Shown here: positions 8,247 to 63,490 of the stretch, one piece after another | How the letters are laid out: every line of letters begins with the position of its first letter | Position numbering within the stretch: the first letter of the stretch is position 1 | Assembly (NCBI GenBank): GCA_965247895.1 | Contig: OZ252046.1 | Location: 3,319,155-3,383,154 of the forward strand | Direction of reading: 5' to 3' | DNA length: 64,000 nucleotides | Origin: Dehalococcoidia bacterium | GTDB lineage: Bacteria > Chloroflexota > Dehalococcoidia > UBA2979 | Translations under genes and position numbers: made by a program | The notes under the pieces: model-generated | The model's database searches: none | What the model was told of the DNA's origin: nothing | What the model saw: only the letters and a program-made list of their open reading frames with translations

Positions 8247-8393
8247 CCGCGGGGCGATGCGTTCGATGAGGAGGCGTGCGTCGTCCAGGGCAGCCCCTCC
8301 GATCCGCCGGGCACCGTGTACGACTGTAGGACGTTTCGCGGGTTCGGAGAGTTCCGCCGGGCCGGGATCAGCCCGCCGGTTGGGCCTGCGCCG

Positions 8394-9155
8394 CTACAGG
8401 TCGATCAGGCCGCCGTCGACGCCGAGCTCGACGCCCAGCACGTAGGAGGAGTCGTCCGAGGCGAGGAAGAGCACCGCCTTCGCGATCTCGTCGGGCTGGC
8501 CCTCGCGACGCATCGGGATGAGGTGGCGGCGGATGTACTCGCGCGTCCGCTCGTCCATCGTGGTGTCGAGGATCGGCGTGTCGATCAGGCCGGGGCGGAT
8601 CGCGTTGACGCGGATGCCGCGCCGCAGCAGCCCCGCGCCCAGCGAGCGCGCGAGCGACCGCGCCGCCGCCTTCGAGGCGCCGTAGACCGCGCCCGCGGCG
8701 TAGCCCGTTTCGGACGCGGCCGAGGTCATGATCACGATCGACCCGCCGTCGTTCATCCTCGGAGCGGCCTTCTGGACCGTGAAGAACACGGACTTGAAGT
8801 TGAGCGCCGCGACCGCGTCGAAGTCCTCCTCGGTCACCTCGAGGAAGGGCTGCGGCGGACTGTCCCCGCCCGCGTTCACGACCACGATGTCGATCGGCCC
8901 CAGCTTCGCGGCGGCCTCTGTGAACAGCGAATCGAGGTCGTCGACCGAGGTGACGTCGCAGGGGATGGCGATCGCCCGCTCACCGAGGGCAACCGAGGCC
9001 GCGTCTATCCTCCGGGGATCACGCCCGCAGACGGCGACGCGCGCGCCCTCGGCAAGGAACAGTCGGGCGACGGCGAGGCCGATCCCGCTCGTGCCGCCGG
9101 TAACGACGGCGACCTTGCCCTCGAGCTTGCCGCCTCGTGCGCGTTCGGTCGTCAT
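8394..9155 (-). CDS. SDR-family NAD(P)-dependent oxidoreductase
   Basis: TGGTSGIG glycine-rich motif, NAG motif, and catalytic YxxxK (YGASKAA). Confidence 0.85.
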   Translation of the reverse strand: MTTERARGGKLEGKVAVVTGGTSGIGLAVARLFLAEGARVAVCGRDPRRIDAASVALGERAIAIPCDVTSVDDLDSLFTEAAAKLGPIDIVVVNAGGDSPPQPFLEVTEEDFDAVAALNFKSVFFTVQKAAPRMNDGGSIVIMTSAASETGYAAGAVYGASKAAARSLARSLGAGLLRRGIRVNAIRPGLIDTPILDTTMDERTREYIRRHLIPMRREGQPDEIAKAVLFLASDDSSYVLGVELGVDGGLIDL

Positions 9156-9236: not shown

Positions 9237-9797
9237 CTATTGCGCGGTCCTCTCTCGGAGTAGGTTCGCGACGTATGCCATGAAGCGCGTGGTGCGATCG
9301 CCCGCGGTAGCGGACGGCGGTGGCGCGGACCCTTGCCGGACCTCGGAGAGTTCGTCGTGGGCGAGCGAACTCCTCCACTTCCGGAGACGTTCGTCCGTCC
9401 AGGTAGCGCGGGCAGCCCGCTTCTCGATCCAGAGTGCGCTCGCGTCCCGGCTGAGGCGGTCGTCGGCGACGCGGAGCGCGAAGTCCACGAGACGATCGTT
9501 CGTCGTGAACAGCACGAAGCCATTGCGGAACAGGAACCACGCCATGGCGGTGACCGCCAGCCGTTTGTTCCCGTCTACGTACGGGTGGTTCTTGTTCAGG
9601 CTGTAGTGCAGCGCCGCCGCCTTCTGTTGAGCGGTGCGGTGGTGCGGCCAGTGCGGCTGAGCGAGGGCCGACTCCAGACGCGCGGTTCCCTGCGGCCCGG
9701 CCAGCTGGAAGGCTGGGGTTCCGGGAAACTGATCCTGCGTCAGCGCCTCGACGATGCTGTGGATCTCTCCCTCGTCGAGGTAGTGGAGGCGGCTCAT
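9237..9797 (-). CDS. doc: Doc (death-on-curing) / Fic-fold toxin, 186 aa with C-terminal extension
   Basis: Doc-type motif HPYVDGNKRLAVTAMAWFL. AAGGAAG SD 5 nt upstream of ATG 9797. Confidence 0.8.
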   Translation of the reverse strand: MSRLHYLDEGEIHSIVEALTQDQFPGTPAFQLAGPQGTARLESALAQPHWPHHRTAQQKAAALHYSLNKNHPYVDGNKRLAVTAMAWFLFRNGFVLFTTNDRLVDFALRVADDRLSRDASALWIEKRAARATWTDERLRKWRSSLAHDELSEVRQGSAPPPSATAGDRTTRFMAYVANLLRERTAQ

Positions 9798-9919
9798 TTC
9801 TTCCTTGGTCGATTGCCACCAACGAGCGTGGGGCTATGGACGGCGTACCCGATGGGGTTGTGGTCAGCACGAATCGTCGGCACCGGCCCCGCGAGTGTCA
9901 GGACTGGCGCCTGCGCCTG

Positions 9920-28684: not shown

Positions 28685-29512
28685 GTGGTGAGCAGCGAAC
28701 CGGTCATCCCGCGCGAACAACGGCCAGCGATCGCGAACTACCTCTCGCAGCGCCTCGCCGGACCCGTCTCGGTCGAGACCTGGACGCAGCGCGAATCCAG
28801 GCTCGTGCGCACGGACCGCGACCCCTGCATGTTCTGCGAACCGGTCACCAGCGCCGCGAGGCAGCTCGCCGCGCTGCACCCGCTGATCTCGCTCACGCCC
28901 TACGACATCGACAAGCACGCCGACCGCGCCGCCGAGGCCGGCATCGAGCGCCCGCCCGTGACCGTGCTGCGAGGCCGCAACGGCCGCGAGGTCCGCTTCA
29001 CGGGCCTCTGGTCCGGCCTGCTCTTCACGGCCTTCATGGACGCCGTGGTCTACGTCGGCGCGGGCGTCGCGCCGATCAACCCGGAGACGCGCGAGGCGCT
29101 GCAAGCGATCGAGGAAGAGCTGCGGCTCGAGCTGCTCGTCGCGCCCTACGACCCGTACTCGGCCTACACGCTGCGGGTCGCCGCGGCGTTCGCCGTCGAG
29201 GCGCGTCGCGTGCGCCTCGAGGTGATCGAGATCTCCGAGTTCCCGCGGCTGGCGCAGACGCGGATGGTCACCGAGGTCCCGGTGCTGCTGGTCAACGGTC
29301 GCCGCTTCACGGGCGCCTGGGACGAGAACGACCTGCTGGAGCAGTTGAAGCGCGTCGCCGCCAGCGACTCGGAGCCGGTGATCCGCGAGCGCATCCTCGT
29401 CTCGCCCTTCATGGACGTCGACCAGGCGCAGGCGTTCGCCGCCCGCGAGGCGCAGGGCGTCGCCCGCCAGCCGCCCACGACCCCGGGCGGCCTCATCATC
29501 CCCGGCCGCTAG
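28685..29512 (+). CDS. thioredoxin-fold protein with two TRX-like domains (CxxC only in the first)
   Basis: CMFC redox motif; second domain ...VPVLLVNGRRF... lacks cysteines. The last 5 codons lie in a 44-bp sequence repeated at 31526. Confidence 0.5.
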   Translation: MVSSEPVIPREQRPAIANYLSQRLAGPVSVETWTQRESRLVRTDRDPCMFCEPVTSAARQLAALHPLISLTPYDIDKHADRAAEAGIERPPVTVLRGRNGREVRFTGLWSGLLFTAFMDAVVYVGAGVAPINPETREALQAIEEELRLELLVAPYDPYSAYTLRVAAAFAVEARRVRLEVIEISEFPRLAQTRMVTEVPVLLVNGRRFTGAWDENDLLEQLKRVAASDSEPVIRERILVSPFMDVDQAQAFAAREAQGVARQPPTTPGGLIIPGR

Positions 29513-29541
29513 CCGGGGCGGCGAGCGATGTAGATCGCGAT
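29498..29541. repeat. 44-bp direct repeat, copy 1 (relic of the metalloprotease gene 3' end)
   Basis: catccccggccgctagccggggcggcgAgcgaTgtagatCgcg matches 31526..31569 with 3 mismatches. Contains a 7-bp stem hairpin CCCCGGC-cgcta-GCCGGGG. The minus strand encodes ...IAIYIARRPG*, like the metalloprotease C-terminus GGAIYVARRPG*. Confidence 0.6.
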
Positions 29542-31528
29542 CACGGAGTAGTGAGTTCGAACGTCCCGCAGTTGCTGGTGCTGATGCTGGACCACTCCGC
29601 TTGTACTTCGAAGGCGACTCGTCCGGGGCCTGATGCGACGCGGTGGCTGTTGTCGCGGTAGACGCGGCACAGGTTGCCGGTGTTGGTGGCGGCGTACGTG
29701 CCCGGAGCGAGTTCGGAGGGCACGAGGTAGACGCCGTCACCGAAGGAGGCGAGGCGGCTGGGAGTGTGGAGTTCGAACGTACCGCAGTCCCTGACGCGGA
29801 TGCTAGGCTACTCGGGCATTACCTCGAAGGTTATCCGTCCGGGCCCGGACGCCACGAGGCGGCTGTTCTCGCGGTAAACGCGGCATGAGTTGTCTGGGTC
29901 GGCGGCGCGGTACGTTCCCGGTGCGAGTTCGGAGGGCACGAGGTAGACGCCGTCACCGAAGGAGGCGAGGCGGCTGGGAGTGTGGAGTTCGAACGTACCG
30001 CAGTCCCTGACGCGGATGCTGGGCCACTCGGGCATTACCTCGAAGGTTATCCGTCCGGGTCCGGACGCCACGAGGCGGCTGTTCTCGCGGTAAACGCGGC
30101 ATGAGTTGTCTGAGTCGAGGGCGCGGTACGTTCCCGGTGCGAGTTCGGAGGGCACGAGGTAGACGCCGTCACCGAAGGAGGCGAGGCGGCTGGGAGTGTG
30201 GAGTTCGAACGTACCGCAGTCGCTGACGCGGATGCTGGGCCACTCGGGCATTACCTCGAAGGTAATCCGTCCGGGCCCGGACGCCACGAGGCGGCTGTTG
30301 TCGCCGTAAACGCGGCATGAGTTGTCCGTGTCGGTGGCGCGGTACGTTCCCGGCGCGATCTCGGAAGGCACGAGGTAGACGCCGTCACCGAAGGAGGCGA
30401 GGCGGCTCGGAGTGTGGAGTTCGAACGTTCCGCAGTCGCTGACGCGGATGCTGGGCCACTCGGGCACTACCTCGAAGGTTATCCGTCCGGGGCCTGATGC
30501 GACGAGGCGGCTGTTGTCGCCGTAGACGCGGCATGAGTTGTCCGTGTCGGTGGCGCGGTACGTTCCCGGCGCGATCTCGGAAGGCACGAGGTAGGTGCCG
30601 TCACCGAACGCTGCGGGAGCCGCAGCCGTTGGTGTGGGTGCGGGCGTCGCCGCCGCTGCGGATGTTGGCGTAGGAGTGGGCGCGGCCATCGCCGCCGTGG
30701 GCGTGAGCGTAGGTGTGTGCGCGTCGGCCCCCGCCGCCGTGGGCGTGGGCGTGGGCGGGGCCGTCGCTGCCGCTGCGGACGTTGACGTAGGAGCGGGCGC
30801 GGCCGTCGTCGCCGCCGCGGGCGTCGGCGTAGGTGTGTGCGCGTCGGCCCTCGACGCTGTGGGCGTCTCTGTCCTCGCCGCCACAGGCGTGGGCGTAGGT
30901 GAGGGGATGGCGACCCTCGCTGCAGCGGGCGTTGGCTTTGGTGTGGGTACAGACGGAGCCGCGCGTTGAGCGCGGGTTGGTGTTGCGGTTACGGCGTTCG
31001 AGCGGCTGAGAGTCGGCGCGGGAGTCGATCGGCGCAGGGGTGTCGTCGTTGCAGTGCGGGGCGCCACCGTGGCGCGCGCTGTGGCCGGTGGTGTTGAACT
31101 GTCGTCCGACTGCATTTGTCCGACGATGGCTCGACCGACAATGCCGACCGCGAGGACAGCGAGTAGCAGAGTCCACGGCCCGATCCTCGATCGTGAGCGG
31201 CTTGGTGGTGACTCAGGGCTGGCTTGTCGCGGCCTGCTCCGGGTGCCCTGCGTGCCGATCGCGGTTCAGATCCCGAGGTGCGGCCACCCGTATCAGCACG
31301 CGGCGTTCCGGCCCGCCACATGTCGTACGCGCGCCGCTGCTCTGCCCTCGACAGAGTCTCGAACGCGGCGTTGAGCCGTACCATGCGGGTGGCATCCGGC
31401 TCGGAGCTGCTGTCCGGGTGGTACTTGCGGGCGAGGCGACGGTAGGCGGCTTGAATGACCTCGGGCGAGGCGTTCGTGGAGACCTCAAGTTCCTCGTAGA
31501 GATCGAAGTCGGGAAAGCCCTCGCTCAT
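29541..31528 (-). pseudogene. disrupted gene: N-terminal J-domain, TM helix, Pro/Thr-rich linker, 5 x ~60-aa Cys-containing tandem repeat domains
   Basis: Frame 1 (ORF 30989..31528) carries a DnaJ J-domain DFDLYEELEV...YRRLARKYHPD, then garbage-like R-rich text. A different frame holds the TM helix IGPWTLLLAVLAVGIVGRAIVG, the PT linker and repeats (ORF 29808..31115), with no start codon before the TM helix. The last repeat is cut by TAG at 29808-29810, where the other repeats have TGG (Trp). ORF 29541..29723 is the remaining tail. Confidence 0.55.
29545..30600. repeat. ~180-bp near-identical tandem repeats (about 5.8 units) encoding the repeated extracytoplasmic domain
   Basis: Repeated peptide FGDGVYLVPSE(I/L)APGTYRA.D.DNSCRVY(G/R)(D/E)NSRLVASGPGRITFEVMPEWPSIRV(S/R)DCGTFELHTPSRLAS. 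Units differ by only a few nucleotides. Confidence 0.8.
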
Positions 31529-31569
31529 CCCCGGCCGCTAGCCGGGGCGGCGCGCGACGTAGATGGCGC
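31526..31569. repeat. 44-bp direct repeat, copy 2 (true 3' end of the metalloprotease gene, overlapping the J-domain gene start codon)
   Basis: Same sequence as 29498..29541 with 3 mismatches. Confidence 0.6.
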
Positions 31570-32956
31570 CGCCGGCGAGCGCGCCCGCCAGCAGCAACGC
31601 AACGAGGCCGACCGCGATGCCCACGACGGTGTTCGAGCCGCCGCCGCCGGCGCTCGCTGCCGCGGCCGTCGGCTCGGCGCTGTCCGTGCCGGCTCCGGCG
31701 GCAGGGGACGCCGCCTCGCTGGTCGCGGTCGGCGAGGCCTCGTCACGGTCGCCGGAGCCGCCGCTGGCGCCGATTGAGGTCGGGATTGCGAGGGGGGCGC
31801 GGGTCGCCTCGGCGACCGGGGCAGCGGTGGCCTCGGTGCGCGGCGCGTAGTCGATCGGGTCGAGGCCCTTGGCCACGCGCCAGAGGTTGTAGAGCCCGTC
31901 CAGGTCGACTCCGTAGACCTGCTCAAGGCCGCTGTCGGTGGAGGAGCCCTCGCGGATGACGCGGAACAGATCGGCGAATTGCTGCTCGCCGAACTCCTCG
32001 ATCATGTAGTCCACCACGGACCAGGATTGGCCGTATTGGATGTTGATCAGGTTCGGGTTGTTGCTGGGAGACTCCAGGTTGCGCAGGCGCAGCGTGCGGT
32101 CCGCGGCGATCGCGAAGGCGACCGCGTCGTCGTACTCCAGCCGCGAGCTCTGCATGTAGACCGCCGTGCCCTCGTCGAGCCACGAGGGGATCCGGGTGAA
32201 GGGGCCGTCGCCGGCGACGGCGGTAACGATGTGCGCCGCCTCGTGGCGCACGACGTCGATCGTGGCGTGGAAGACGAACAGGAGATCGGGGCTGACCCGC
32301 TGGCCCCCGGTATTCACGAGCCGGTCGAAGACCGCGCCCCGCGAGCGCATCGCCAGCTCGCCGTCGTCCTCGGAGGCCCAGACCATCACGCGCACCGGGT
32401 ACGGAACCTTCACCTGCAGCAGCCGCTCGGTGGCTTCGAGGGACGAGCGGGTGCCCTCCAGCACGCGTTCGGCGCGGTCGTGGTTGGTGCCGTAGTAGTA
32501 GACGGTCACGTCGCCGCCCTGCACGAAGACCCAGGGGTAGCGCCCGTCCAGGAAGAGGTAGCTCTGCTCCTCGGTGACGAAGCTCTCGTCGTCGGCGCCG
32601 GTGAAGCGCCAGTGGTAGCGGAACTGCGACCCGACCGGGATGTAGCGCCGCGACGTCCGCGTCTCGAGGGTGAGCGAGATGTCGAACTCCACGCCGCCCT
32701 CGAAGTCCTCGCGGACCACGCTCCCGCCGACGTCCCCTTCCTTCGGGTTGAGCACGCGATAGACGAGTTCCGCCTCTTTGAGCCCGGCGGAAGCGGCGAC
32801 GCGCACGCTGAAGGTGACCGAGGTCGGATCCTCGCTGCGCACGCGCAGGTTGGACGCCTCGATGCCCTCCGCGCGTGTCGCGCCCGGCCAGGCGAGCGCG
32901 AGGGCGAACGCTGCCGCAAGGCCGACGGAGGCCGCTGTTCGCAGCGCGAGCGTCAC
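31538..32956 (-). CDS. secreted zinc metallopeptidase (HExxH, MA-clan-like) with C-terminal TM anchor
   Basis: Signal peptide, HEAAHIV zinc motif, Ala/Gly/Ser-rich linker, and C-terminal helix VVGIAVGLVALLLAGALAGGAIYVARRPG. Confidence 0.65.
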   Translation of the reverse strand: MTLALRTAASVGLAAAFALALAWPGATRAEGIEASNLRVRSEDPTSVTFSVRVAASAGLKEAELVYRVLNPKEGDVGGSVVREDFEGGVEFDISLTLETRTSRRYIPVGSQFRYHWRFTGADDESFVTEEQSYLFLDGRYPWVFVQGGDVTVYYYGTNHDRAERVLEGTRSSLEATERLLQVKVPYPVRVMVWASEDDGELAMRSRGAVFDRLVNTGGQRVSPDLLFVFHATIDVVRHEAAHIVTAVAGDGPFTRIPSWLDEGTAVYMQSSRLEYDDAVAFAIAADRTLRLRNLESPSNNPNLINIQYGQSWSVVDYMIEEFGEQQFADLFRVIREGSSTDSGLEQVYGVDLDGLYNLWRVAKGLDPIDYAPRTEATAAPVAEATRAPLAIPTSIGASGGSGDRDEASPTATSEAASPAAGAGTDSAEPTAAAASAGGGGSNTVVGIAVGLVALLLAGALAGGAIYVARRPG

Positions 32957-34081
32957 TTGCGGGCGCCCTCCTCGACGCCCACCTGCTCGCGCAGCCAGGC
33001 GTAGATGAAGTCGTCGATCTCGCCGTCGAGGACGGCGTTGGTGTCGCTCGTCTCGAGGTTCGTGCGCAGGTCTTTGGCCATGCGGTAAGGGTGGAGGACG
33101 TACGAGCGGATCTGGTTGCCCCAGCCCGGTTGCACGTGCACGCCCTTGATGCGGGCGAGCTCCAGCTCGCGCTTCTCCAGCTCGATCTCGAGCAGACGTG
33201 ACTTGAGGACCTGCATGGCGGATTCGCGGTTTCGAAGCTGGGAGCGCTCGTTCTGACAGGTCACCACGATACCAGTCGACAGGTGTGTGAGCCGCACGGC
33301 GGTGTCGTTCTTCTGCACGTTCTGCCCGCCGTGGCCGCTGGCGCGGTAGGTGTCCACGCGCAGCTCGTCGGGGCGGATCTCGATCTCGATGTCCTCGTCC
33401 TGCGCCTCCGGCATCACCTCGACGAGGGCAAAGCTGGTGTGGCGGGAGTTCGAGGCGTCGAAGGGCGAGATCCGCACCAGCCGGTGCACGCCTCGCTCCG
33501 ATCGCAGCAGCCCGTAGGCGTCCTCGCCGATGATGCGGATCGAGACGGACTTGATGCCCGCCTCGTCACCGGGGGAGATCGAGACCACCTGGGTGCCGTA
33601 CTCGCGGCGCTCGCCCCAGCGCAGGTACATGCGCAGCAGCATCTCCACCCAGTCCTGCGCCTCGGTGCCGCCGGCCCCGGCGTGGATCGCCAGCACGGCG
33701 CTGTGGTCGTCGTAGGGGCCGCCGAGGGTGAGCGCCACCTCCAGCTCGGTGAACTGCGCCTCAAGGCCGCCGAGTTCGTCCTCGATGTCGCCTTCGAGCG
33801 CGTCGTGATCCTCGCCGTCCGTGTCGTCGGCGAGCTCAACGAGATCGGCGAGGTCGGCGGAGCGCTGTTCGAGTGTTCGCCAGGTCTCGACCTGACGCTC
33901 GAGGCGGGCGACGCGCTTCATCAGCGCCTGTGCGCGTTCGGAGTCGTTCCAGAGGTCGGGGGCGGCGGCCTGGGTGCGAGCCTCGGTCAGCTCGCGCTCG
34001 CGTGCGGGCAGGTCAAAGCCGCACCTGCACATCGCGCACGCGCTCGAGCAGTTCGGCCAGTCGCTGCCGCAGGTCGTCCAT
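32953..34081 (-). CDS. prfB: peptide chain release factor 2, requiring programmed +1 frameshift
   Basis: Frame 0: ATG 34081, MDDLRQRLAELLERVRDVQVRL, then TGA inside the canonical CTT TGA C shift site (34013-34019) with an AGGUG SD-like element upstream. The +1 frame continues DLPARERELTEA... through SPF and GGQ motifs to 32953. Confidence 0.9.
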
Positions 34082-34201
34082 ACCTTGATGTTCGCACGGG
34101 TAGGCGCAGAGCGCGAAGGGGCGCGCAGGGTGGTACGCCTTGGCGCGGGCGCTCGCCCGTATACTGCTGTGCAGGACGTGCGCACGGGGAGCGGCGCGGC
34201 G

Positions 34202-34882
34202 ATGAAGAAGCGGCTCACGGTCAACGTGGACGCCGAGGTGATCCCGGCGGCGAAGCGCTACGCCCGAGACCGCGGCGTCTCGTTGTCTTCGCTTGTCGAG
34301 CGATCGCTGCGCGAGCTGGCTGCGGAGGACGGGGCGGCGGCGAGCGATGCGGAGCCCACGACGGCCGCCGAATGGGAAGCGAGACGAGCAGCGTGGTTCG
34401 CAGGCCTGCGCCGCAATCGCAGGCCCGCGGGCCCCAACGCCGACGGCCTCCACGACTTCCGCGCCGGGACGGGCGATGAGGATTCCGAAGAGGTCGCCAG
34501 GGCCTGGGCTACGCGGTGGCGCGCCTGGTTCAACGGCGAACTCCCGCCTCCCCGGCGCAGCAAGGATCCGCGGTACCGCTACCTCGACGAAGGTCTTGGG
34601 AAGACGTACGGCATCCGTTGGACGGAGGATGATGAACCGTCGGCCGCGGAACCGCCCGCGGGACGCGACGCCAGGCGGCCGGGAGGCGACCACACGGATG
34701 ACGATCGGGGATCGTGGCTTGACCGCTGGCTTGAGCAGGCAGGTCCGCCCACCGGCAAGCTCAAGCCCCCCACGGGCGACGACCCTCGCTACGAGTATTA
34801 CTGGTACAAGTACCGCCTCTGGGAGGGGAACGAGGAGGAAGCGTCGGTCGCGGACGACCAGCACGCCCGGGCGACTCGCTGA
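34202..34882 (+). CDS. vapB: VapB-like ribbon-helix-helix antitoxin with unusually long (~170 aa) Trp/Arg/acidic-rich C-terminal extension
   Basis: N-terminus MKKRLTVNVDAEVIPAAKRYARDRGVSLSSLVERSLRELA is typical of VapB/RHH antitoxins. Its stop lies 3 nt before the PIN gene. Start taken at internal ATG 34202 of ORF 33974..34882. Confidence 0.55.
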   Translation: MKKRLTVNVDAEVIPAAKRYARDRGVSLSSLVERSLRELAAEDGAAASDAEPTTAAEWEARRAAWFAGLRRNRRPAGPNADGLHDFRAGTGDEDSEEVARAWATRWRAWFNGELPPPRRSKDPRYRYLDEGLGKTYGIRWTEDDEPSAAEPPAGRDARRPGGDHTDDDRGSWLDRWLEQAGPPTGKLKPPTGDDPRYEYYWYKYRLWEGNEEEASVADDQHARATR

Positions 34883-34885
34883 CCC

Positions 34886-35287
34886 GTGATCCTCATTGAC
34901 AGTGACGTCCTGCTTGATGTCGTGCTCCGGAGGGAACCGCACATCGGGCCATCTCTGGCCTTCCTCACCCAGACCCGGGAAGCCGACGAACTCGCCTCCG
35001 TCGCCTGGCACTCCATCGCGAACGTCTACTACGTCGCGGACCGGCATCACGTGGACGCGAGGGACTTCCTCCTCCGCTTGCTGGACTGGGTCGACATCGC
35101 GCCGACCGATGCGGATTCCGTGCGCTACGCCGCAGCGCTGCCGATGGCGGACTTCGAGGACGCGCTGCAGGCGGCCGCCGCCCGCGCCTGCGACGCCAGA
35201 CACATCGTCACGAGGAACCTCGCGGACTTCGCCGACTCGCCGATTCCGGCGATCAGCCCGCGCGAGGCGCTCCGCAACCTGTCCTGA
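34886..35287 (+). CDS. vapC: PIN-domain ribonuclease toxin VapC
   Basis: MILIDSDVLLDVV... with conserved acidic residues. GTG start. Confidence 0.8.
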   Translation: MILIDSDVLLDVVLRREPHIGPSLAFLTQTREADELASVAWHSIANVYYVADRHHVDARDFLLRLLDWVDIAPTDADSVRYAAALPMADFEDALQAAAARACDARHIVTRNLADFADSPIPAISPREALRNLS

Positions 35288-38505: not shown

Positions 38506-39513
38506 GTGAGCGCCGGTCCGGGTTCGTCGCAGTACGACCCGGTCGCGATCGTCTTCCCCGGCCAGGGCTCGCAGGCGCCCGGTATGGGCCGCCTCGTGCA
38601 CCAGCACTCGGCGCAGGCGCGGCTCGCCTTCGAGGAGGCGAGCGACGTCACCGGCATCGATGTCGCGCGCGTCTGCTTCGAGGGCGACGCCGACGAGCTG
38701 GCGGAGACGCGCTTGACGCAGCCCGCGGTGCTGACCACCTCGACGGCGATCTTCCGCGGCATGTGCGAGAAGCTGGGCGAGGTGCGGCGCTCGATCCAGC
38801 CGCGCCTCTTCGGCGGCCATTCGCTCGGCCTGTTCGGCGCGGCCGTCGCCAGCGAGGCGCTGACCTTCCGCGACGCGCTGCTGGTCGTGCTGGAACGCTC
38901 GCGCCTGATGAGCAGCTTCAACGAGGGCCGCCCCGTCGGGATGGCCTCGATCATCGGCCTCAACGGCGAGCTCGTGCAGGAGATCTGCGAGGGCGCGACG
39001 CACTCGCCCGCGGACCGCGTCGATGTCGCCAACCACAACCTGCAGACGCAGACCGTGATCAGCGGCGACGTCTCCGCCCTCGAACGCGCGATGGAGCACG
39101 CGCGCGAGCTGCAGGGGCGCGTGATCCGGCTGAAGGTCAAGGTCTCCAGCCACACCCCGCTGCACAACGAGCAGGCCGAGGAGTTCGCCGCGATCATCAA
39201 GGACGTGCCGATCAGCGACCCCGTGCGCCCGATCGTCTCGAACCGCAACTCACGCCTGCTGCACACCGCGGCGGAGCTGCGGGAGGAGTTCTCCGAGCAG
39301 TTGCGCGCGCCGGTCTTCTGGGAAGGCAACGTGCGCGCGATGACCAACCAGGGCGTGCACACCTTCATCGAGGTGGGGCCCGGGCACGTGCTCTCGCGCA
39401 TGGTGCGCCGCATCTCCAACCGCGTGGTCGCCGTCTCGCTCGACGACGCCGAGGTTGAGCCGATCCCGATCTCCGTCCTGCCGCTCGACGCTCTCGAGGC
39501 GCCGCAGGGCTGA
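38506..39513 (+). CDS. fabD: malonyl-CoA:ACP transacylase
   Basis: FPGQGSQ and GHSLG motifs. Confidence 0.9.
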   Translation: MSAGPGSSQYDPVAIVFPGQGSQAPGMGRLVHQHSAQARLAFEEASDVTGIDVARVCFEGDADELAETRLTQPAVLTTSTAIFRGMCEKLGEVRRSIQPRLFGGHSLGLFGAAVASEALTFRDALLVVLERSRLMSSFNEGRPVGMASIIGLNGELVQEICEGATHSPADRVDVANHNLQTQTVISGDVSALERAMEHARELQGRVIRLKVKVSSHTPLHNEQAEEFAAIIKDVPISDPVRPIVSNRNSRLLHTAAELREEFSEQLRAPVFWEGNVRAMTNQGVHTFIEVGPGHVLSRMVRRISNRVVAVSLDDAEVEPIPISVLPLDALEAPQG

Positions 39514-40763
39514 TGGCTCAGGCGCCGCGGCGAGTTGTGGTCACGGGCCTCGGGCTGCTCACGCCCCTGGGACTCGATGCCGAATCGACCTGGGACGGCC
39601 TGATCGAGGGCCGCTCCGGTATCGCCCCGATCACAGCCTTCGACACCTCCGCGTTCGAGTGTCCGATCGCCGGTGAGCTGCGCGGCTTCGACCCCGCCAA
39701 GCACGTCGATCCGAAGCTCGCGAGGCGCATCGACCGCTCCTCGGTGCTGGCGATCGCGGCCTCGAAGCAGGCCGTGCAGGACGCGCAGCTCGATCTGGAG
39801 CGGCAGCCTCCGGGCAGCGTCGGCATCGTGCTCGGGACGGGCATCGGTGGGGCGCACCTGCTGATCGAGAACCAGCAGCTGCTGGATCAGCGAGGGCCGC
39901 GCCGGGTCAGCCCCTTCATGATCACCAACTCGCTGCCGGACACCGCCTCCGGCCTCGTCGCGATCGCGCTCGGCGCGGGCGGGCCGAACATGGCCATCAC
40001 CGCCGCCTGCGCGACGGGCGGCGCGGCCGTCGGCGAGGCCGCGGAGATCATCCGCCGCGGCGCAGCCGACGTGATCCTCGCCGGCGGTTTCGAGGCCCCG
40101 TTGCATCCGATCTACTACGCCGGCTTCCAGGCGATGCGCGCCCTCGCCGTGCACGACGACCCGACGCAGGCCTCGCGACCCTTCGACGCCGATCGCAACG
40201 GCTTCGTGATCTCCGAGGGCGCCAGCGTGCTGATCCTCGAGGAGCTCGACCACGCGCTGGCGCGCGGCGCGCGCATCTACGCCGAGTGGGAGGGCGCGGC
40301 CACCGCCAGCGACGCCTTCGACATGGCCGCCGCCGCCGATGACGGGCGTGGCGTCGTGCGCGCAATGCAGCAGGTGTTCGCCGACAGCGAGGTGCCGCCG
40401 GGCGAGGTGGACTACCTCAACGCCCACGGCACGAGCACGCCGCTCAACGACCGCGTCGAGACCCGGGCGATCCGCACCGTCTTCGGCGAGGCTGCGGACC
40501 GCCTCGCGGTCTCCTCAACCAAGTCGATGCTCGGGCACATGATGGGCGCCGCGGGCGCGGTGGAGGCGGCGGTGGCGGTGCTCGCCTGCGATCGGCAGAT
40601 CGTGCCGCCCACGATCAACTATCGTACGCCCGACCCGGATTGCGACCTCGACTACGTGCCGAACGAGGCGCGTCCGATGGAGGTGCGGCACGCGCTGAGC
40701 ACCTCGGTTGGACTCGGGGGGCATAATTCGGTCCTGCTCTTCGGACGCTGGGAGGGTGTGTAA
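39513..40763 (+). CDS. fabF: 3-oxoacyl-ACP synthase II (KAS II), copy 1
   Basis: Active-site Cys (AACATGG) and His (NAHGTSTPLND, GHMMGAAG). Confidence 0.9.
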   Translation: MAQAPRRVVVTGLGLLTPLGLDAESTWDGLIEGRSGIAPITAFDTSAFECPIAGELRGFDPAKHVDPKLARRIDRSSVLAIAASKQAVQDAQLDLERQPPGSVGIVLGTGIGGAHLLIENQQLLDQRGPRRVSPFMITNSLPDTASGLVAIALGAGGPNMAITAACATGGAAVGEAAEIIRRGAADVILAGGFEAPLHPIYYAGFQAMRALAVHDDPTQASRPFDADRNGFVISEGASVLILEELDHALARGARIYAEWEGAATASDAFDMAAAADDGRGVVRAMQQVFADSEVPPGEVDYLNAHGTSTPLNDRVETRAIRTVFGEAADRLAVSSTKSMLGHMMGAAGAVEAAVAVLACDRQIVPPTINYRTPDPDCDLDYVPNEARPMEVRHALSTSVGLGGHNSVLLFGRWEGV

Positions 40764-42061
40764 TGGGCGGCCTCGATCCGAACGCGATGAGTACCCCCGC
40801 CGCCGGCGCGGCCCTGGCGGGGCAGCGCCGCATCGTCGTCACCGGCGTCGGCCTCGTCACCTCCGTCGGGATTGGCCGCGAGGCGACGTGGGACGCGCTG
40901 CTCGCGGGCGAGAACGGCATCGGGCCGGTCACGCTCTGCGAGTCCTCGGACCTCGGCTCGCGCATCGCCGGCGAGGCGCCGGACTTCGACCCGCTGAACT
41001 ACATCGACCGCAAGGCCGCGCGGCGCATGGACCGCTTCGTCCAGCTCTCGATCGCCGCGACACAGGACGCGCTCGAACAGTCGGAGCTCGACATCGCGCC
41101 GATCGCCGACGAGGTCGGGGCGATGATTGGCTCCGGCATGGGCGGCCTCACCTGGCTCGAGGATCAATTCAAGGTGATGTTCGAGAAGGGGCCGCACCGC
41201 GTCTCGCCCTTCCTCGTGCCGGCCTTCATCTCCGACATGGCCGCCGGCCAGGTCTCGATCCGCTTCGGCGCGCGCGGGCCGAACTTCAACACCGTCTCCG
41301 CCTGCGCCTCCGGCGCCGACGCGATCGGCACCGCGCTCGAGGTGATCCGCCGCGGGGACGCGCGCGCGATGATCACCGGCGGCAGCGACGCCTGCGTGAC
41401 GCGCATGGGCCTCGCCTCCTTCCACGCCTCGCGGGCGCTGTCCACGCAGCGCAACGACGACCCCGAGCACGCCTCGCGGCCGTTCGACATGGAGCGCGAC
41501 GGCTTCGTGCTGGCCGAGGGCGCGGGCACGCTGATCCTCGAGGAGCTCGAGTTCGCGAAGGCGCGCGGCGCCACGATCCTCGCCGAGGCCGTCTCCTACG
41601 GGCAGTCGGCCGACGCCTTCCACGTCACGCAGCCGTCCGCGAACGGCGAGGGCGCCGCGCGCGCGATGAAGATCGCGCTGCGCAAGGGCGGCGTCGCCGC
41701 GAGCGACGTCGGCTACATCAACGCGCACGGCACGAGCACGCCGCTCAACGACAAGTTCGAGACGATGTCGATCAAGGCCGTCTTCGGCGAGTCCGCGCTC
41801 GGCATCCCCATCTCCTCGACGAAGTCGATGCTCGGCCACACGCTCGGCGCGGCGGGCGGCATCGAGTCCGCCGTCACCGTGCTCTCGCTCCGCGACCAGC
41901 GGCTGCACATGACGCGCAACCTCGAAGTCCCCGACCCCGACTGCGACCTCGACTACATCGCCGAGGGCGCGCGCGACGTGGACATCGAGTACGCGATGAT
42001 GAACTCCCTGGGCTTCGGCGGTCACAACTCCTCCCTGATATTCCGGAGGTACCACGACTAA
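40763..42061 (+). CDS. 3-oxoacyl-ACP synthase II paralog, copy 2 (catalytic triad intact)
   Basis: Cys in VSACASG plus NAHGTSTPLND and GHTLGAAGG. Not a chain-length-factor type, since the Cys is retained. Confidence 0.9.
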   Translation: MGGLDPNAMSTPAAGAALAGQRRIVVTGVGLVTSVGIGREATWDALLAGENGIGPVTLCESSDLGSRIAGEAPDFDPLNYIDRKAARRMDRFVQLSIAATQDALEQSELDIAPIADEVGAMIGSGMGGLTWLEDQFKVMFEKGPHRVSPFLVPAFISDMAAGQVSIRFGARGPNFNTVSACASGADAIGTALEVIRRGDARAMITGGSDACVTRMGLASFHASRALSTQRNDDPEHASRPFDMERDGFVLAEGAGTLILEELEFAKARGATILAEAVSYGQSADAFHVTQPSANGEGAARAMKIALRKGGVAASDVGYINAHGTSTPLNDKFETMSIKAVFGESALGIPISSTKSMLGHTLGAAGGIESAVTVLSLRDQRLHMTRNLEVPDPDCDLDYIAEGARDVDIEYAMMNSLGFGGHNSSLIFRRYHD

Positions 42062-46253: not shown

Positions 46254-46334
46254 GACCCTTGGGCCGCCTCAGGCCGGCGCGGGGCCGAGTTCCGGGTTGC
46301 GCCAGATCGTCTCGTACTGGCGGCTGCGGATCGC
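46254..46334. repeat. 81-bp direct repeat, copy 1 (orphan duplicate of the 3' end of gene 46984..47442)
   Basis: cccttgggccgcctcaggccggcgcggggccgagttccgggttgcgccagatcgtctcgtactggcggCTgcggatcgcg is identical to 46971..47050 except 1 nt. The minus strand encodes ...AIRSRQYETIWRNPELGPAPA*. Confidence 0.7.
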
Positions 46335-46406
46335 GCCGGGGTTTCTGTATTGGGCGCCCGTAACCTGTGGCACGTATTCCGCACGGTTCCGGCGAGGAGG
46401 CTGGAG

Positions 46407-46964
46407 ATGACGACTGCGGGGACGAGGCTCCTGACTGCCGACGATCTCCTGCGGCTCCACGATGAGGGCGTCCGCGGTGAACTGATCCGGGGAGTGCTTT
46501 CCGAGACTCTGCCGGCTGGACATGCACACGGCAGAATCGTGATGAAGCTGGGCTTCGAGCTGATGAGCTTCGTCGAGCCGCGGCAGCTGGGAACACTTGT
46601 TGGCTCGGACGCCGGTGTCTGGCTGGAGCGTGACCCCGACACCGTGCGCGAGCCCGACTTTGCCCACACCTCGGCTGAGAAGATCCCGTTGGACGCGTGG
46701 ATTGATGGCTACGCCGAGGTGGCGCCGGACCTCGTGGTGGGGGTCGCTTCACCCAGCGACAGCCGGCGCGAGGTCAACGACAAGGCGCTGATGTGGCTGA
46801 GCTACGGCGTGCGCCTCGTATGGGTCGTACACCCGGATACACGGACGGTCGACATACACCGGGAGGGCCGCACGGTCTCGACGCTCGCCGGTGACGACGA
46901 TCTCGACGGCATGGATGTGCTTCCCGGGTTCACCTGCCCGGTGCGCGCCGTGTTCGGGGGGTAA
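46407..46964 (+). CDS. Uma2-family (DUF820) putative restriction-endonuclease-like protein
   Basis: MTTAGTRLLTADDLLRL...PDLVVGV...; GGAGG SD before ATG 46407 (internal Met of ORF 46350..46964). Confidence 0.75.
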   Translation: MTTAGTRLLTADDLLRLHDEGVRGELIRGVLSETLPAGHAHGRIVMKLGFELMSFVEPRQLGTLVGSDAGVWLERDPDTVREPDFAHTSAEKIPLDAWIDGYAEVAPDLVVGVASPSDSRREVNDKALMWLSYGVRLVWVVHPDTRTVDIHREGRTVSTLAGDDDLDGMDVLPGFTCPVRAVFGG

Positions 46965-46970
46965 GGCGAA

Positions 46971-47050
46971 CCCTTGGGCCGCCTCAGGCCGGCGCGGGGC
47001 CGAGTTCCGGGTTGCGCCAGATCGTCTCGTACTGGCGGCCGCGGATCGCG
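46971..47050. repeat. 81-bp direct repeat, copy 2 (functional 3' end of gene 46984..47442)
   Basis: See copy 1. Confidence 0.7.
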
Positions 47051-49697: not shown

Positions 49698-49766
49698 CTA
49701 TCCGTCGCCGGGTTCCTCCGTCACGGGCAGCGCGGGCTGCGGCGAGGCGCCCTCGATGCGCGCGAG
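49698..49766. repeat. ~69-bp direct repeat, copy 1 (orphan duplicate of the scpA 3' end)
   Basis: ctatccgtcgccgggttcctccgTcacgggcagcgcgggctgcggcgaggcgccctcgatgcgcgcgag matches 51114..51182 with 1 mismatch. The minus strand encodes ...[21 protein letters not shown]. Confidence 0.7.
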
Positions 49767-49779
49767 CGAGCGTCGCCTG

Positions 49780-50448
49780 CTATCCGTACCTATGGGCCAG
49801 GGCATAGGCCAGCCGGTCAGCCAGTGGGTGCTCATCGATCCTGCGCAGTTGGTCAACGAGTTCAGGCCGCGACTGCGGCAAAACGCCAGCATCGCTCAGG
49901 GCTGCGCGGGCGAGGTGCGTCAGCATCGAGACACTGAGTTCGGCGGCGGCGTCATGATCGCCGGCCGTCCGCATCTCGTCGTAGAGGCGTTGTGTCCTGT
50001 TCGCGCGCTCCCGTGCTTCGGTCGCCGACGGCAACACGAGTCGGTGGTTCCAGTTAGCCCGAAGTAGCGACCACCAGCCATTGCGCTCGAACAGCACCCG
50101 ACCGTAGCGCACCGTCCAGGAGAGGTAATCGTGACCGGCCTTGAGCTTTCGCGCGACGCCGGCCTGCTCGTACTGCCGCAGGTCTACATCGATCGGCGGC
50201 CGCGGCAGGCCGGGCCGACGTCCCCAGTACACCAGCACGATGTCGAGGTCGTCGCTGTGGTCGACGGCGCGGATGGCTGAGCCGGAGACGACGATCGCCT
50301 GAACCGCCAAGTTTCGGCTGGCGCCCGCCAGGGCGTCGAGCGTCCACGCTCGTGCGCCAGTGCTCGGCCACGACCGTACAGCAGTGAGCACGTCGCCCAG
50401 CGCTTGCGGTGGGCATGCTGACCGATCCGTCGTTTGCCGCTGCGTCAT
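49780..50448 (-). CDS. nucleotidyltransferase (Pol-beta superfamily) protein, possibly with a fused HEPN-like C-terminal half
   Basis: GS-x9-13-DxD nucleotidyltransferase motif (VVSGSAIRAVDHSDDLDIVLV). The C-terminal half contains RTAGDH, which fits the HEPN Rx4H pattern. Confidence 0.55.
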   Translation of the reverse strand: MTQRQTTDRSACPPQALGDVLTAVRSWPSTGARAWTLDALAGASRNLAVQAIVVSGSAIRAVDHSDDLDIVLVYWGRRPGLPRPPIDVDLRQYEQAGVARKLKAGHDYLSWTVRYGRVLFERNGWWSLLRANWNHRLVLPSATEARERANRTQRLYDEMRTAGDHDAAAELSVSMLTHLARAALSDAGVLPQSRPELVDQLRRIDEHPLADRLAYALAHRYG

Positions 50449-50636
50449 TCTGCGAGTAACGTTCCCACGGAGTCGACGTACTCCTCGATCGCGGCGGCAG
50501 TCTCCTCCGGACTCAGGTTCTCGGGGGGATAGATATCTCCGTATGCCTCGTGCTTGCGCGTCTCGTTCAGGTCGACAAGCAGGCCGTCTATGTATGGCAA
50601 GCCGTGCCCCTCGCTGAGGAGTTCGGCCATCTCCAC
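50445..50636 (-). CDS. small ORF (63 aa) translationally coupled upstream of the nucleotidyltransferase gene
   Basis: ATGA-type overlap with the downstream gene and acidic composition. Possible antitoxin or partner protein. Confidence 0.3.
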
Positions 50637-50666
50637 CTTGGCGTGGTGGGAGAGTGTAGCAGGGAA

Positions 50667-50701
50667 CCGTTGAGGCGCATGATGCCGATGCGCCTCAACG
50701 G
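50667..50701. promoter_or_regulatory. perfect 12-bp inverted repeat (CCGTTGAGGCGC-N11-GCGCCTCAACGG) just upstream of the small-ORF/NTase pair; candidate operator
   Basis: Seen directly in the sequence, about 30 nt upstream of the 50636 start codon on the minus strand. Confidence 0.35.
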
Positions 50702-51113
50702 TCGTCGCACTTCTGGGCAGGCCCCAGACTCACGGTCACCGTACCGAGGCCCCGTCATGCTCGCGTCGCCGATGACGCCGCCAGAAGTCTTCTGCGCTCG
50801 GACCAGATCGCTGCCCGGCGACTCGCGCCCGCCTGCGGCAGTGTCCGGCCCAGCATCGAATAGCAGGTGGTGGGTGGCGCGAGACGAGGCTATCGGGTCG
50901 GGTTGCTCGTGGCTGGCGACGCACACCTTGGCCTGCCCCCACAGGCGGTTGCTCGCTGAGGGCTTTTCGGACACCGAGACCGAGCGGCGTCTCGGTAGGA
51001 CGCGCCGGGCGTGCAGTCGCTTCAAGCTGCCGCGGGAGGTCGAAGAACTTGAGGCTCGCCCTGTTCGAACTCAGGGCGCCGGAGGTCGCTGCAGCGTTCG
51101 CTCGCAGCCCTCG

Positions 51114-51182
51114 CTATCCGTCGCCGGGTTCCTCCGCCACGGGCAGCGCGGGCTGCGGCGAGGCGCCCTCGATGCGCGCGAG
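51114..51182. repeat. ~69-bp direct repeat, copy 2 (true scpA 3' end)
   Basis: See copy 1 at 49698..49766. Confidence 0.7.
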
Positions 51183-63408: not shown

Positions 63409-63490
63409 TCCAGCGTCTGCCCCACACGGGCAACACCCCGCTGTACCAACATCATACCCGCTTGTTTATCGCGTTAACAACTCAGGACAC
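62311..63490. mobile_element. IS630/Tc1-mariner family insertion sequence (~1180 bp) with ~24-bp imperfect terminal inverted repeats and TA target-site duplication
   Basis: Left end GTGTCCTGAGTTGGGAATGCG; right end reverse complement GTGTCCTGAGTTGTTAACGCG. Flanking dinucleotides are TA/TA (forming CTAG on both sides). Confidence 0.8.

What the first reader, a model, noticed from the sequence alone, without database searches (positions are those of the whole stretch)
29498..31569. Cassette 1: J-domain/repeat gene flanked by a 44-bp duplicate of the metalloprotease 3' end; the repeat contains a stop-codon-bearing hairpin
Copy 2 (31526..31569) is the real end of the metalloprotease gene (...GGAIYVARRPG*) and also covers the cargo ATG. 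Copy 1 (29498..29541) is an out-of-frame relic (...IAIYIARRPG*) that now also supplies the last 5 codons and TAG stop of the thioredoxin-like gene. The repeat carries the hairpin CCCCGGC-cgcta-GCCGGGG with the TAG stop in its loop/stem, a plausible former terminator for the convergent gene pair.
Basis: seen in the sequence. Interest (0 to 1): 0.55.

Follow-up and report, generated by a model that had tools for sequence, protein, structure and literature searches.

The report
Decaying gene insertion with flanking duplication
A 2-kb stretch holding one now-broken gene for a membrane J-domain protein was inserted long ago between two tail-to-tail housekeeping genes of a Dehalococcoidia bacterium, duplicating about 40 bases of the junction; it is a well documented but ordinary example of how bacterial genomes gain, erode and lose small accessory genes.

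Summary
The repeat is real. Window 29496-29541 and 31525-31570 share 28 identical bases, then 13 of the next 16. The right copy is the true 3' end of a peptidase-MA gene. The left copy is a non-coding relic abutting the stop of a thioredoxin-fold gene. Between them lies one promoterless minus-strand gene: J-domain, one TM helix, Pro/Thr/Ala linker and five Rv1352/Rv1906c-type 72-aa repeats. In this genome it is a pseudogene (1-nt deletion at 31234/31235; TGG>TAG at 29808-29810).

Among 20 related Dehalococcoidia loci, outgroups have the two flanking genes as convergent neighbours, and one ingroup genome has their stops overlapping in the same palindrome. Eight genomes carry the J gene at this same junction, always with a relic repeat. 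J-gene divergence tracks the flanking genes, so the insertion is old and vertically inherited. It was later eroded by independent frameshifts and IS hits, and probably lost by repeat-mediated deletion.

No recombinase, attC, terminal inverted repeats or second location was found. The best reading is a one-off duplicative illegitimate insertion that survived because the duplication preserved both overlapping gene ends. Two younger cassettes in the window (81- and 69-bp repeats) show the same architecture. Ordinary; interest is low to moderate.

The parts
28685..29512 (+). Thioredoxin-fold (PDO-like) gene, left flank; its last 5 codons and TAG lie inside repeat copy 1
   Evidence: Pfam Thioredoxin_3 E 3e-5. 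NCBIfam TIGR02187 E 1.3e-34, below cut-off. Syntenic in all relatives.
29496..29541 (.). Direct repeat copy 1: relic of the last ~10 metalloprotease codons plus the palindrome; non-coding for the protease
29500..29518 (.). Palindrome CCCCGGC-CGCTA-GCCGGGG (copy 1), holding the thioredoxin-like gene's TAG and the relic's TAG
   Evidence: sequence. Fold. Not terminator-like by the scan.
29541..31528 (-). Cargo: a single promoterless gene (J-domain, TM, PT/A-rich linker, 5 Rv1352/Rv1906c-type repeats); a pseudogene here
   Evidence: GC3 0.76 against 0.93-0.96 in the neighbours
31300..31528 (-). J-domain coding part (HPD motif present: ...RKYHPDSS...)
   Evidence: Pfam DnaJ E 2.9e-17, residues 9-69
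31234..31235 (-). Site of a 1-nt deletion (GGAGCAG-GCC here, GGAGCAGCGCC in five relatives) that shifts the frame between J-domain and TM helix
   Evidence: alignment; frames
31119..31184 (-). Predicted transmembrane helix IGPWTLLLAVLAVGIVGRAIVG (in the shifted frame)
   Evidence: translation; conserved in all orthologues
29545..30608 (-). Tandem array of 216-bp (72-aa) units, 4.9 copies, encoding Rv1352/Rv1906c-type domains; copy number varies from 1 to about 8 among relatives
29808..29810 (-). In-frame TAG (TGG>TAG) in the fourth repeat unit
31525..31570 (.). Direct repeat copy 2: genuine 3' end of the metalloprotease gene plus the palindrome (31529-31547) plus the cargo ATG
31538..32956 (-). 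Peptidase-MA family metalloprotease gene with a C-terminal TM anchor, right flank
   Evidence: Pfam Peptidase_MA_2 E 1.4e-24; orthologues in L001-L016
46255..47050 (.). Context: 'cassette 2'. 81-bp direct repeats (46255-46335 / 46970-47050, 1 mismatch) flank a Uma2 endonuclease gene (46407-46964 +). The right copy is the real 3' end of a 152-aa gene.
   Evidence: Present in L019 (~98% ANI), empty in L020 (~95% ANI).
49698..51182 (.). Context: 'cassette 3'. 69-bp direct repeats (49698-49766 / 51114-51182, 1 mismatch) flank two small genes. The right copy is the real 3' end of scpA.
   Evidence: empty site in L020, other cargo in L019 and L021

Best explanation
The 44-bp repeat marks the two ends of an old insertion.

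Before the event, the metalloprotease and thioredoxin-like genes were convergent, and their stop codons overlapped (CTAG) in the loop of a GC palindrome. A DNA fragment carrying essentially one ORF landed in this junction by a non-dedicated, illegitimate recombination event. That ORF encodes a J-domain, a TM helix, a PT-rich linker and Rv1352-type repeats. The event duplicated about 35-44 bp: the last 9-10 metalloprotease codons plus the palindrome. Because the two stops overlapped, only an insertion that duplicated the junction could leave both core genes intact. This is why a repeat is seen here.

The duplication itself could have arisen in two ways. One is fill-in of breaks staggered around the palindrome. 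The other is homology-anchored or Campbell-type integration of a fragment carrying a copy of the protease end. This step is inferred, not shown.

The insertion predates the split of two species-level clades and was inherited vertically. The cargo has no promoter of its own and sits 9-15 nt behind the protease stop, so any expression would be by read-through. It is now decaying in most lineages. In the window genome it is a pseudogene. The two repeat copies act as substrates for occasional gene conversion and for precise deletion, which restores the convergent arrangement.
For: Ancestral arrangement:
- Outgroups have the two genes convergent, 27-45 bp apart.
- L004 has the overlapping-stop palindrome in single copy.

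Distribution of the J gene:
- It sits at the identical junction in WIN, L001, L003, L006, L014, L017, L018 and L038, with a remnant in L002.
- It lies in both 100%-bootstrap clades.
- Every locus that reaches the thioredoxin end has a relic repeat of 24-44 bp.
- J-domain DNA distances parallel the flanking genes (0.05-0.15 within clade A, 0.14-0.18 between clades). This points to vertical descent.

Decay:
- Independent lesions: WIN -1 nt and TAG; L001 +2 nt and IS21; L003 and L038 other frameshifts; L002 J-domain replaced.
- GC3 is 0.76 against 0.93-0.96 in the neighbours.

Loss:
- L005 (empty) is sister to L014 (occupied) at 100% bootstrap.
- L005's protease end is identical over 39 nt to L014's relic, including a 10-nt insertion that supplies a new TAA.

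Survivorship:
- Three different cargos at this junction are each flanked by repeats containing CTAG: J 35-44 bp, L009 16-19 bp, L016 12 bp.

No mobility machinery:
- No integrase in or near the cargo; the window is core genes apart from small islets and one IS630-like gene 31 kb away.
- No terminal inverted repeats, and no end motifs shared with the other two cassettes.
Against: - The molecular step that created the duplication is not shown.
- Three cassettes with 44-81-bp repeats in 64 kb is more than expected if such repeats are usually under 30 bp (PMC2884548). This hints at something more systematic.
- Relic and real copies partly co-vary within genomes. Both are CGT in L017, and the I/V codon occurs in all four real/relic combinations across species. 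This needs gene conversion or repeated excision and re-integration.
- The presence/absence pattern in clade B needs 3-4 precise losses, or re-acquisitions through flank homology. The data cannot separate the two.
- The +10-nt relic variant is absent from L006, although L006 groups (weakly, 62%) with a +10 genome.
Confidence: 0.7

Rival explanations
1. A lineage-specific, still unidentified integration pathway inserts short cargo just downstream of genes and generates long (40-80 bp) target duplications. Cassette 1 is an old product of it; cassettes 2 and 3 are recent products.
For: Three cassettes of identical architecture lie in one 64-kb window: a relic copy distal, and the real 3' end of a minus-strand gene proximal. 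Cassette 2 is a clean 81-bp duplication of native sequence, with an empty site in a ~95% ANI relative. All three sites are hot spots that hold different cargo in different relatives. Repeats this long are unusual for ordinary variable segments.
Against: Repeat lengths vary (12, 17, 35-44, 69, 81 bp). The cargos share no ends, no inverted repeats and no recombinase. Other cargos at the same sites lack long repeats. A scan of 509 kb of window plus fetched loci found no further cases. In cassette 3 the spacer after the relic differs from the spacer after the real copy. That fits homologous-plus-illegitimate recombination better than a staggered cut.
Confidence: 0.13
2. The repeat is an attL/attR pair left by a site-specific integrative element that targeted the metalloprotease 3' end. 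The integrase and the rest of the element were later deleted, or acted in trans.
For: An identical 28-bp core is followed by diverging arms, and the palindrome lies in the core. Empty and occupied alleles exist. Related Uma2 genes elsewhere ride on elements with large serine recombinases.
Against: The cargo is a single ORF with the same junctions in all eight genomes, and none has an integrase. The element was never seen at another site. The 28-bp identity is specific to the WIN/L002/L038 lineage and comes from a 6-nt loss at the left junction; other genomes share only 24-33 bp. The other two cassettes use unrelated repeat sequences.
Confidence: 0.08
3. The J gene moves among related species as a presence/absence allele by homologous recombination in the flanking genes. 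Under this reading the pattern reflects repeated re-acquisition rather than repeated loss.
For: Junctions are identical in all carriers. In L014 both repeat copies carry the L005/L014-specific TCC codon, as expected if a local sequence was duplicated or recombined recently. The topology needs 3-4 losses otherwise.
Against: J-gene distances are congruent with the flanks for every pair, so any donors must have been very close relatives. This concerns spread, not origin, and is compatible with the main explanation.
Confidence: 0.07
4. Assembly artefact: a mis-joined strain bubble creates a spurious duplicate.
For: The source is probably a metagenome-assembled genome.
Against: The copies differ at 3 positions. 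The same architecture is present in at least seven independent assemblies from different samples.
Confidence: 0.01

Closest known systems
Small variable segments / indels flanked by direct repeats, generated by illegitimate or homology-facilitated illegitimate recombination (Touzain et al. 2010, PMC2884548; de Vries & Wackernagel 2002 and Prudhomme et al. 2002 as cited there)
   Same: A 1-2 gene accessory segment in a core context. It is flanked by direct repeats, relatives have an empty site with one repeat copy, there are no mobility genes, and deletion between the repeats is plausible.
   Different: The repeats are longer (35-81 bp) than the <30 bp typical in that survey. The repeat duplicates the coding 3' end of a neighbouring gene and a palindrome shared by two overlapping stop codons. 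The insertion is old and shared across species.
Integrase-mediated genomic islands that target and duplicate the 3' end of a gene (tRNA/tmRNA islands; the ssrA islands of Dehalococcoides are recalled from memory, not checked here)
   Same: The element is bounded by a direct repeat that reconstitutes the 3' end of the target gene. Alleles are occupied or empty. The host phylum is Chloroflexota.
   Different: There is no integrase, the cargo is a single ORF, the element was not seen at any other locus, and the three cassettes use three unrelated repeats.
Integron gene cassettes
   Same: A promoterless single ORF directly behind an upstream gene, followed by an imperfect palindrome.
   Different: No attC core sites (no GTTRRRY/RYYYAAC in the repeat), no intI/attI/Pc, no array, and the 'site' is simply a copy of the neighbouring gene's end.
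Membrane-anchored J-domain co-chaperones (e.g. DjlA; the actinobacterial-type J-TM-PT-linker proteins P0024/P0026/P0032)
   Same: A J-domain with the HPD motif tethered to the membrane by one TM helix. P0024, P0026 and P0032 share the N-terminal J-domain, PT-rich linker and small C-terminal domain layout.
   Different: The C-terminal module here is a tandem array of Rv1352/Rv1906c domains. DjlA has the opposite topology. The window copy is a pseudogene.

Membership tests
Direct-repeat-flanked variable segment from illegitimate recombination | Presence/absence polymorphism among relatives, with the empty site holding one copy of the repeat | tested here: met
   L004 holds a single copy with overlapping stops. 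L005, L007 and L008 hold a single copy with a 10-nt scar. Outgroups are convergent neighbours.
Direct-repeat-flanked variable segment from illegitimate recombination | No transposase, integrase or terminal inverted repeats belonging to the segment | tested here: met
   The cargo is one ORF. There are no inverted terminal repeats. IS elements in L001 and L002 are secondary insertions.
Direct-repeat-flanked variable segment from illegitimate recombination | The repeat is a duplicate of local target sequence | tested here: met
   The relic aligns with the protease's last codons plus the palindrome in 7 genomes.
Integrase-type integrative element (attL/attR) | A site-specific recombinase gene in the element or demonstrably acting on it | tested here: not met
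   None in the cargo of any of 8 genomes, and none in the annotated window neighbourhood.
Integrase-type integrative element (attL/attR) | An identical core within otherwise diverged att sites | tested here: inconclusive
   A 28-nt identical core exists in WIN. Its extent differs between genomes and is explained by ordinary decay plus a 6-nt deletion.
Integron gene cassette | An attC site with conserved core sites (RYYYAAC ... GTTRRRY) | tested here: not met
   The repeat sequence contains no GTT (read directly).
Integron gene cassette | intI integrase, attI and Pc upstream of an array | tested here: not met
   The upstream genes are the metalloprotease and prfB; no tyrosine recombinase is present.
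DDE/HUH transposable element | Terminal inverted repeats or subterminal hairpins at the cargo ends, with a short target duplication of fixed length | tested here: not met
   The TIR score is no better than random. Duplication lengths are 12-81 bp.
Diversity-generating retroelement (TR/VR pair at a gene's 3' end) | A reverse transcriptase nearby and mismatches confined to template adenines | tested here: not met
   The mismatches are A/C, T/C and C/G. No RT was found among the annotated neighbours.
Intrinsic (Rho-independent) terminator | A GC-rich stem followed by a U-tract | tested here: not met
   A 7-bp GC stem is present but no T-run. It is not reported by the scan. Fold z-scores are -0.4 to -1.6.
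J-domain protein (PF00226) | A J-domain profile match with the HPD tripeptide | tested here: met
   DnaJ E 2.9e-17...RKYHPDSS....
Rv1352/Rv1906c domain family (NF053833 / PF27111) | A profile match above the curated cut-off | tested here: met
   NF053833 scores 50.2 bits against a cut-off of 25 on the intact L006 orthologue. PF27111 is listed for homologues. The local Pfam copy gave no hit.

The most novel reading that the evidence does not exclude
These sponge-type Dehalococcoidia may possess an undescribed, recombinase-independent or trans-acting way of integrating short promoterless or few-gene cargo immediately behind genes. It would copy 40-80 bp of the target gene's 3' end, so the target stays intact and the cargo stays excisable. 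The three cassettes in this window would be its products at different ages.
Probability: 0.12. Interest if true: 0.6.

Novelty: new member of a known kind. Interest (0 to 1): 0.28.

Why it matters
The finding gives an unusually complete life history of a small accessory-gene insertion, reconstructed from about 20 related genomes: the ancestral junction, the duplicative insertion, vertical inheritance across species, repeat-number flux, independent pseudogenisation, IS bombardment, and probable precise loss through the flanking repeat. It also shows a simple selective reason for long flanking duplications. Where convergent genes overlap at their stops, only insertions that duplicate the junction survive. 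Practically, annotation pipelines would mis-call the J gene as two or three ORFs, and the relic as part of an ORF. It does not reveal a new mobile element or system.

Tried and rejected
1. DGR-type TR/VR pair: the mismatches are not adenine-specific and there is no RT.
2. Integron attC: no core sites and no intI.
3. Transposon: no terminal inverted repeats, and no end motifs shared among the three cargos.
4. The J gene's start and first codons as a diverged copy of the antisense thioredoxin 3' end, which would have made the original duplication ~60 bp: the alignment score is no better than random 30-mers. Only L002 has a real 57-bp repeat reaching into that region.
5. A donor with a native metalloprotease-J operon: the nearest other J-TM proteins (P0026) sit in an unrelated context.
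6. Canonical terminator: no U-tract and no exceptional stability.
7. Horizontal transfer of the J gene into L014: the distances are congruent with the flanks.
8. Exact-protein look-ups of the cassette 2 and cassette 3 cargo proteins: not on record.
9. Metagenome scan with the thioredoxin-like alignment: only four distant loci, useful only as further outgroups.
10. PDB sequence search with the repeat unit: no hit.
11. Search for further long-repeat cassettes in 509 kb of fetched sequence: none beyond the known ones.
12. Long repeats around other cargos at the same hot spots (L019 site 3, L021 both sites, L030): none.
Full report
**Observation**

The repeat is present and is not chance. The 28-mer TCATCCCCGGCCGCTAGCCGGGGCGGCG occurs exactly twice in the window, at 29496 and 31525. 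No dinucleotide-preserving shuffle gave two matches. Extended without gaps, the copies are 41/44 identical at a spacing of 2029 bp.

Copy 2 (31525-31570) is the true end of a 472-aa Peptidase_MA_2 gene on the minus strand (...GGAIYVARRPG*, stop 31538-31540). It also contains the ATG (31528-31526) of the next minus-strand gene. Copy 1 (29496-41) reads ...VIAIYIARRPG* on the minus strand. On the plus strand it holds the last codons and the TAG (29510-12) of a thioredoxin-fold gene. Both copies contain the palindrome CCCCGGC-CGCTA-GCCGGGG.

**Anatomy of the interval**

The interval holds a single minus-strand gene running from the ATG inside copy 2 to a TGA (29543-29541) that abuts copy 1. It has no upstream region of its own. 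It encodes the following modules:
- a J-domain (DnaJ E 2.9e-17, HPD present);
- a basic linker;
- one TM helix (IGPWTLLLAVLAVGIVG);
- a Pro/Thr/Ala-rich linker;
- 4.9 tandem 216-bp units encoding Rv1352/Rv1906c-type domains with two Cys each.

In the window it is broken twice. There is a 1-nt deletion between 31234 and 31235 relative to five orthologues, not in a homopolymer. There is also a TGG>TAG change at 29808-29810 in the fourth unit. Its GC3 (0.76) is well below that of the neighbours (0.93-0.96).

**Relatives**

A scan of one genome per species with the metalloprotease gave 16 loci, all Dehalococcoidia MAGs. Exact-protein look-ups added L017, L018 and L038. A metagenome scan added four distant loci. 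Synteny prfB - metalloprotease - [x] - thioredoxin-like (reverse) - pgsA - GT4 is conserved.

In the outgroups (L010-L013, L034, L035) the two genes are convergent with 27-45-bp spacers, in L011 and L012 containing another GC hairpin. Within the ingroup the junction takes these states:
- L004 has the two stops overlapping as CTAG in the loop of exactly this palindrome, in single copy.
- L005, L007 and L008 have one copy with 10 extra nt.
- The J gene sits at the same junction in WIN, L001, L003, L006, L014, L017, L018 and L038.
- L002 keeps only its first 19 nt, fused to a different N-terminal region.
- L009 and L016 carry unrelated cargo.

In all seven cases where its context is known beyond the window, the J gene is at this locus.

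**Age and inheritance**

A concatenated flank-gene tree gives two 100%-bootstrap ingroup clades. J carriers occur in both. J-domain DNA distances parallel the flanking genes for every pair: 0.05-0.15 within clade A, 0.14-0.18 between clades, and 0.117 for L006-L014. The insertion is therefore older than the clade split and has been inherited vertically, or exchanged only among very close relatives.

The gene is decaying:
- Four different frameshifts are seen (WIN, L001, L003, L038).
- L014, L017 and L018 have truncations.
- L001 has an IS21 inside the repeats and an IS481-like element beside the relic.
- L002 has a transposase-like gene in the repeats.
- Only L006 has an intact reading frame.
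- Repeat number ranges from 1 to about 8.

**The repeat across genomes**

Every carrier whose contig reaches the thioredoxin end has a relic of the protease end next to the thioredoxin stop:

| Locus | Relic repeat |
|---|---|
| WIN | 40-44 nt |
| L038 | 38 nt |
| L017 | 33 nt, identical to the real copy |
| L003 | 25-33 nt |
| L001 | 27 nt |
| L006 | 24 nt |
| L014 | a variant with 10 extra nt |

In most carriers the left junction reads TAGCGGCCGGGCGCYGGGATGA. WIN, L002 and L038 have lost 6 nt there, which is why the identity in the window runs on to GGGGATGA. Relic divergence from the real copy is 0-4 of about 22 nt. That is roughly what neutral decay over this time scale would give.

There are signs of exchange between the copies. 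L017 and L018 have CGT in the real copy, a variant otherwise seen only in relics. The Ile/Val codon occurs in all four real/relic combinations.

The best evidence for loss comes from L005. It is empty, it is sister to occupied L014 at 100% bootstrap, and its protease end is identical over 39 nt to L014's relic, including the 10-nt insertion that now supplies its TAA stop. This is the expected product of recombination between the two copies. The reverse, a duplicative re-acquisition in L014, cannot be formally excluded.

**Hairpin**

The 7-bp GC stem is real, but it has no U-tract and is not reported by the terminator scan. It does not fold better than shuffled sequence (z -0.4 to -1.6). Its position between convergent genes, and the presence of a different hairpin in the same place in outgroups, make a termination or 3'-end-stability role plausible. 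That role is not demonstrated.

**Why a duplication, and how**

Three unrelated cargos at this one junction are each flanked by direct repeats that include the overlapping stops: J at 35-44 bp, L009 at 16-19 bp, and L016 at 12 bp (GGCTAGCGCGGC). Because the stops overlapped, an insertion that did not duplicate the junction would truncate or extend one of two conserved genes. The repeat is therefore at least partly a survivorship signature.

The window holds two younger cassettes of the same architecture:
- a Uma2 gene with 81-bp repeats (46255-47050);
- a two-gene cassette with 69-bp repeats (49698-51182).

A ~98% ANI relative (L019) shares the first. A ~95% ANI relative (L020) is empty at both sites. 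An 83%-identity relative (L021) has other cargo without long repeats.

Cassette 2 is a clean duplication of native sequence. In cassette 3 the spacer after the real copy matches the empty-site spacer, but the spacer after the relic does not. That is what a homologous crossover in the gene combined with an illegitimate join would give: homology-facilitated illegitimate recombination, or Campbell integration of a circularised fragment. The mechanism is known from the literature cited in PMC2884548 and otherwise rests on my own knowledge.

The three cargos share no termini and no inverted repeats. No recombinase lies nearby. The window is core genes plus small islets (LRR, Fic, PIN/DUF6364) and an IS630-like gene 31 kb away. 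No further long-repeat cassettes were found in 509 kb of fetched sequence.

I therefore commit to sporadic, non-dedicated duplicative insertion (confidence 0.7). A dedicated long-duplication pathway is the main rival (0.13).

**What is shown and what is inferred**

| Status | Claim |
|---|---|
| Shown | The repeat itself |
| Shown | The ancestral convergent, overlapping arrangement |
| Shown | The insertion is shared and old |
| Shown | Pseudogene status in the window |
| Shown | Absence of mobility genes and motifs |
| Shown | Recurrence of CTAG-containing repeats around other cargos |
| Inferred | The molecular route of the original duplication |
| Inferred | Repeat-mediated deletion as the cause of empty sites |
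| Inferred | Gene conversion between the copies |
| Inferred | Read-through expression of the cargo |

**Comparison and verdict**

This is a new example of a known kind: a direct-repeat-flanked variable segment in a core-gene context. It resembles 3'-end-targeting islands and integron cassettes in layout but fails their defining features (no integrase, no attC). Its 'cassette' label should be read as descriptive only. Interest is low to moderate, at 0.28.

Noticed in passing
window 46255-47050: A Uma2-family endonuclease gene (46407-46964, +) is flanked by 81-bp direct repeats (1 mismatch) that duplicate the last 67 nt plus 14 nt downstream of a 152-aa gene. It is shared with L019 (~98% ANI). 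L020 (~95% ANI) has a clean empty site of 22 bp between the convergent stops. The closest Uma2 homologues elsewhere (76-78% identity) sit next to large serine recombinases and Replic_Relax genes.
   Followed up: partly
window 49698-51182: A two-gene cassette (a 222-aa gene at 49780-50448 and a small upstream ORF, both minus strand, no family hits) is flanked by 69-bp repeats of the scpA 3' end. The order is A-B-cargo-A'-B'-C. Spacer B matches the empty site of L020 and B' does not, which suggests a homologous crossover plus an illegitimate join. L019 and L021 carry different cargo at the same site.
   Followed up: partly
L002:11416-15629: In the closest relative, the J-domain is replaced by an unrelated ~200-aa N-terminal region. 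That region begins with the J gene's first 6 codons followed by 20 nt copied from the antisense thioredoxin 3' end, giving a 57-bp repeat shifted toward the thioredoxin gene. A transposase-like gene interrupts the Rv1352 repeats.
   Followed up: partly
L001:12774-16726: An IS21 (IstA/IstB) is inserted inside the J gene's repeat array. An IS481-like element lies between the relic repeat and the thioredoxin gene, so the junction is a recurrent landing site.
   Followed up: yes
window 6693-8393: A minus-strand gene with about 12 tandem 72-bp (24-aa) leucine-rich repeats: a eukaryote-like LRR protein, as reported for sponge symbionts. A Fic/DOC gene lies next to it at 9237-9833.
   Followed up: no
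window 33974-35287: A DUF6364 + PIN_3 pair (toxin-antitoxin-like) lies between prfB and folD. This slot is variable among relatives: L017 has only a 70-aa PIN fragment, L018 has both genes, and L038 has a UDG gene plus a 199-aa ORF instead.
   Followed up: no
window 62308-63465 and 63698-63800: An IS630-like DDE_3 transposase gene is followed by a short His/Asp-rich 9-33-bp tandem repeat at the window edge.
   Followed up: no
window 39459-42061: Two adjacent ketoacyl-synthase paralogues give 72-78% identical direct repeats at 1301-bp spacing (40153-40583 / 41454-41884). This is an ordinary tandem paralogy conserved in relatives.
   Followed up: no
L017:5961-5993 and 8857-8889; L018: In L017 the real and relic copies are identical over 33 nt and both carry a CGT Arg codon. 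Among real copies that codon is found only in L017 and L018, but it is common among relics. This suggests relic-to-gene conversion.
   Followed up: partly
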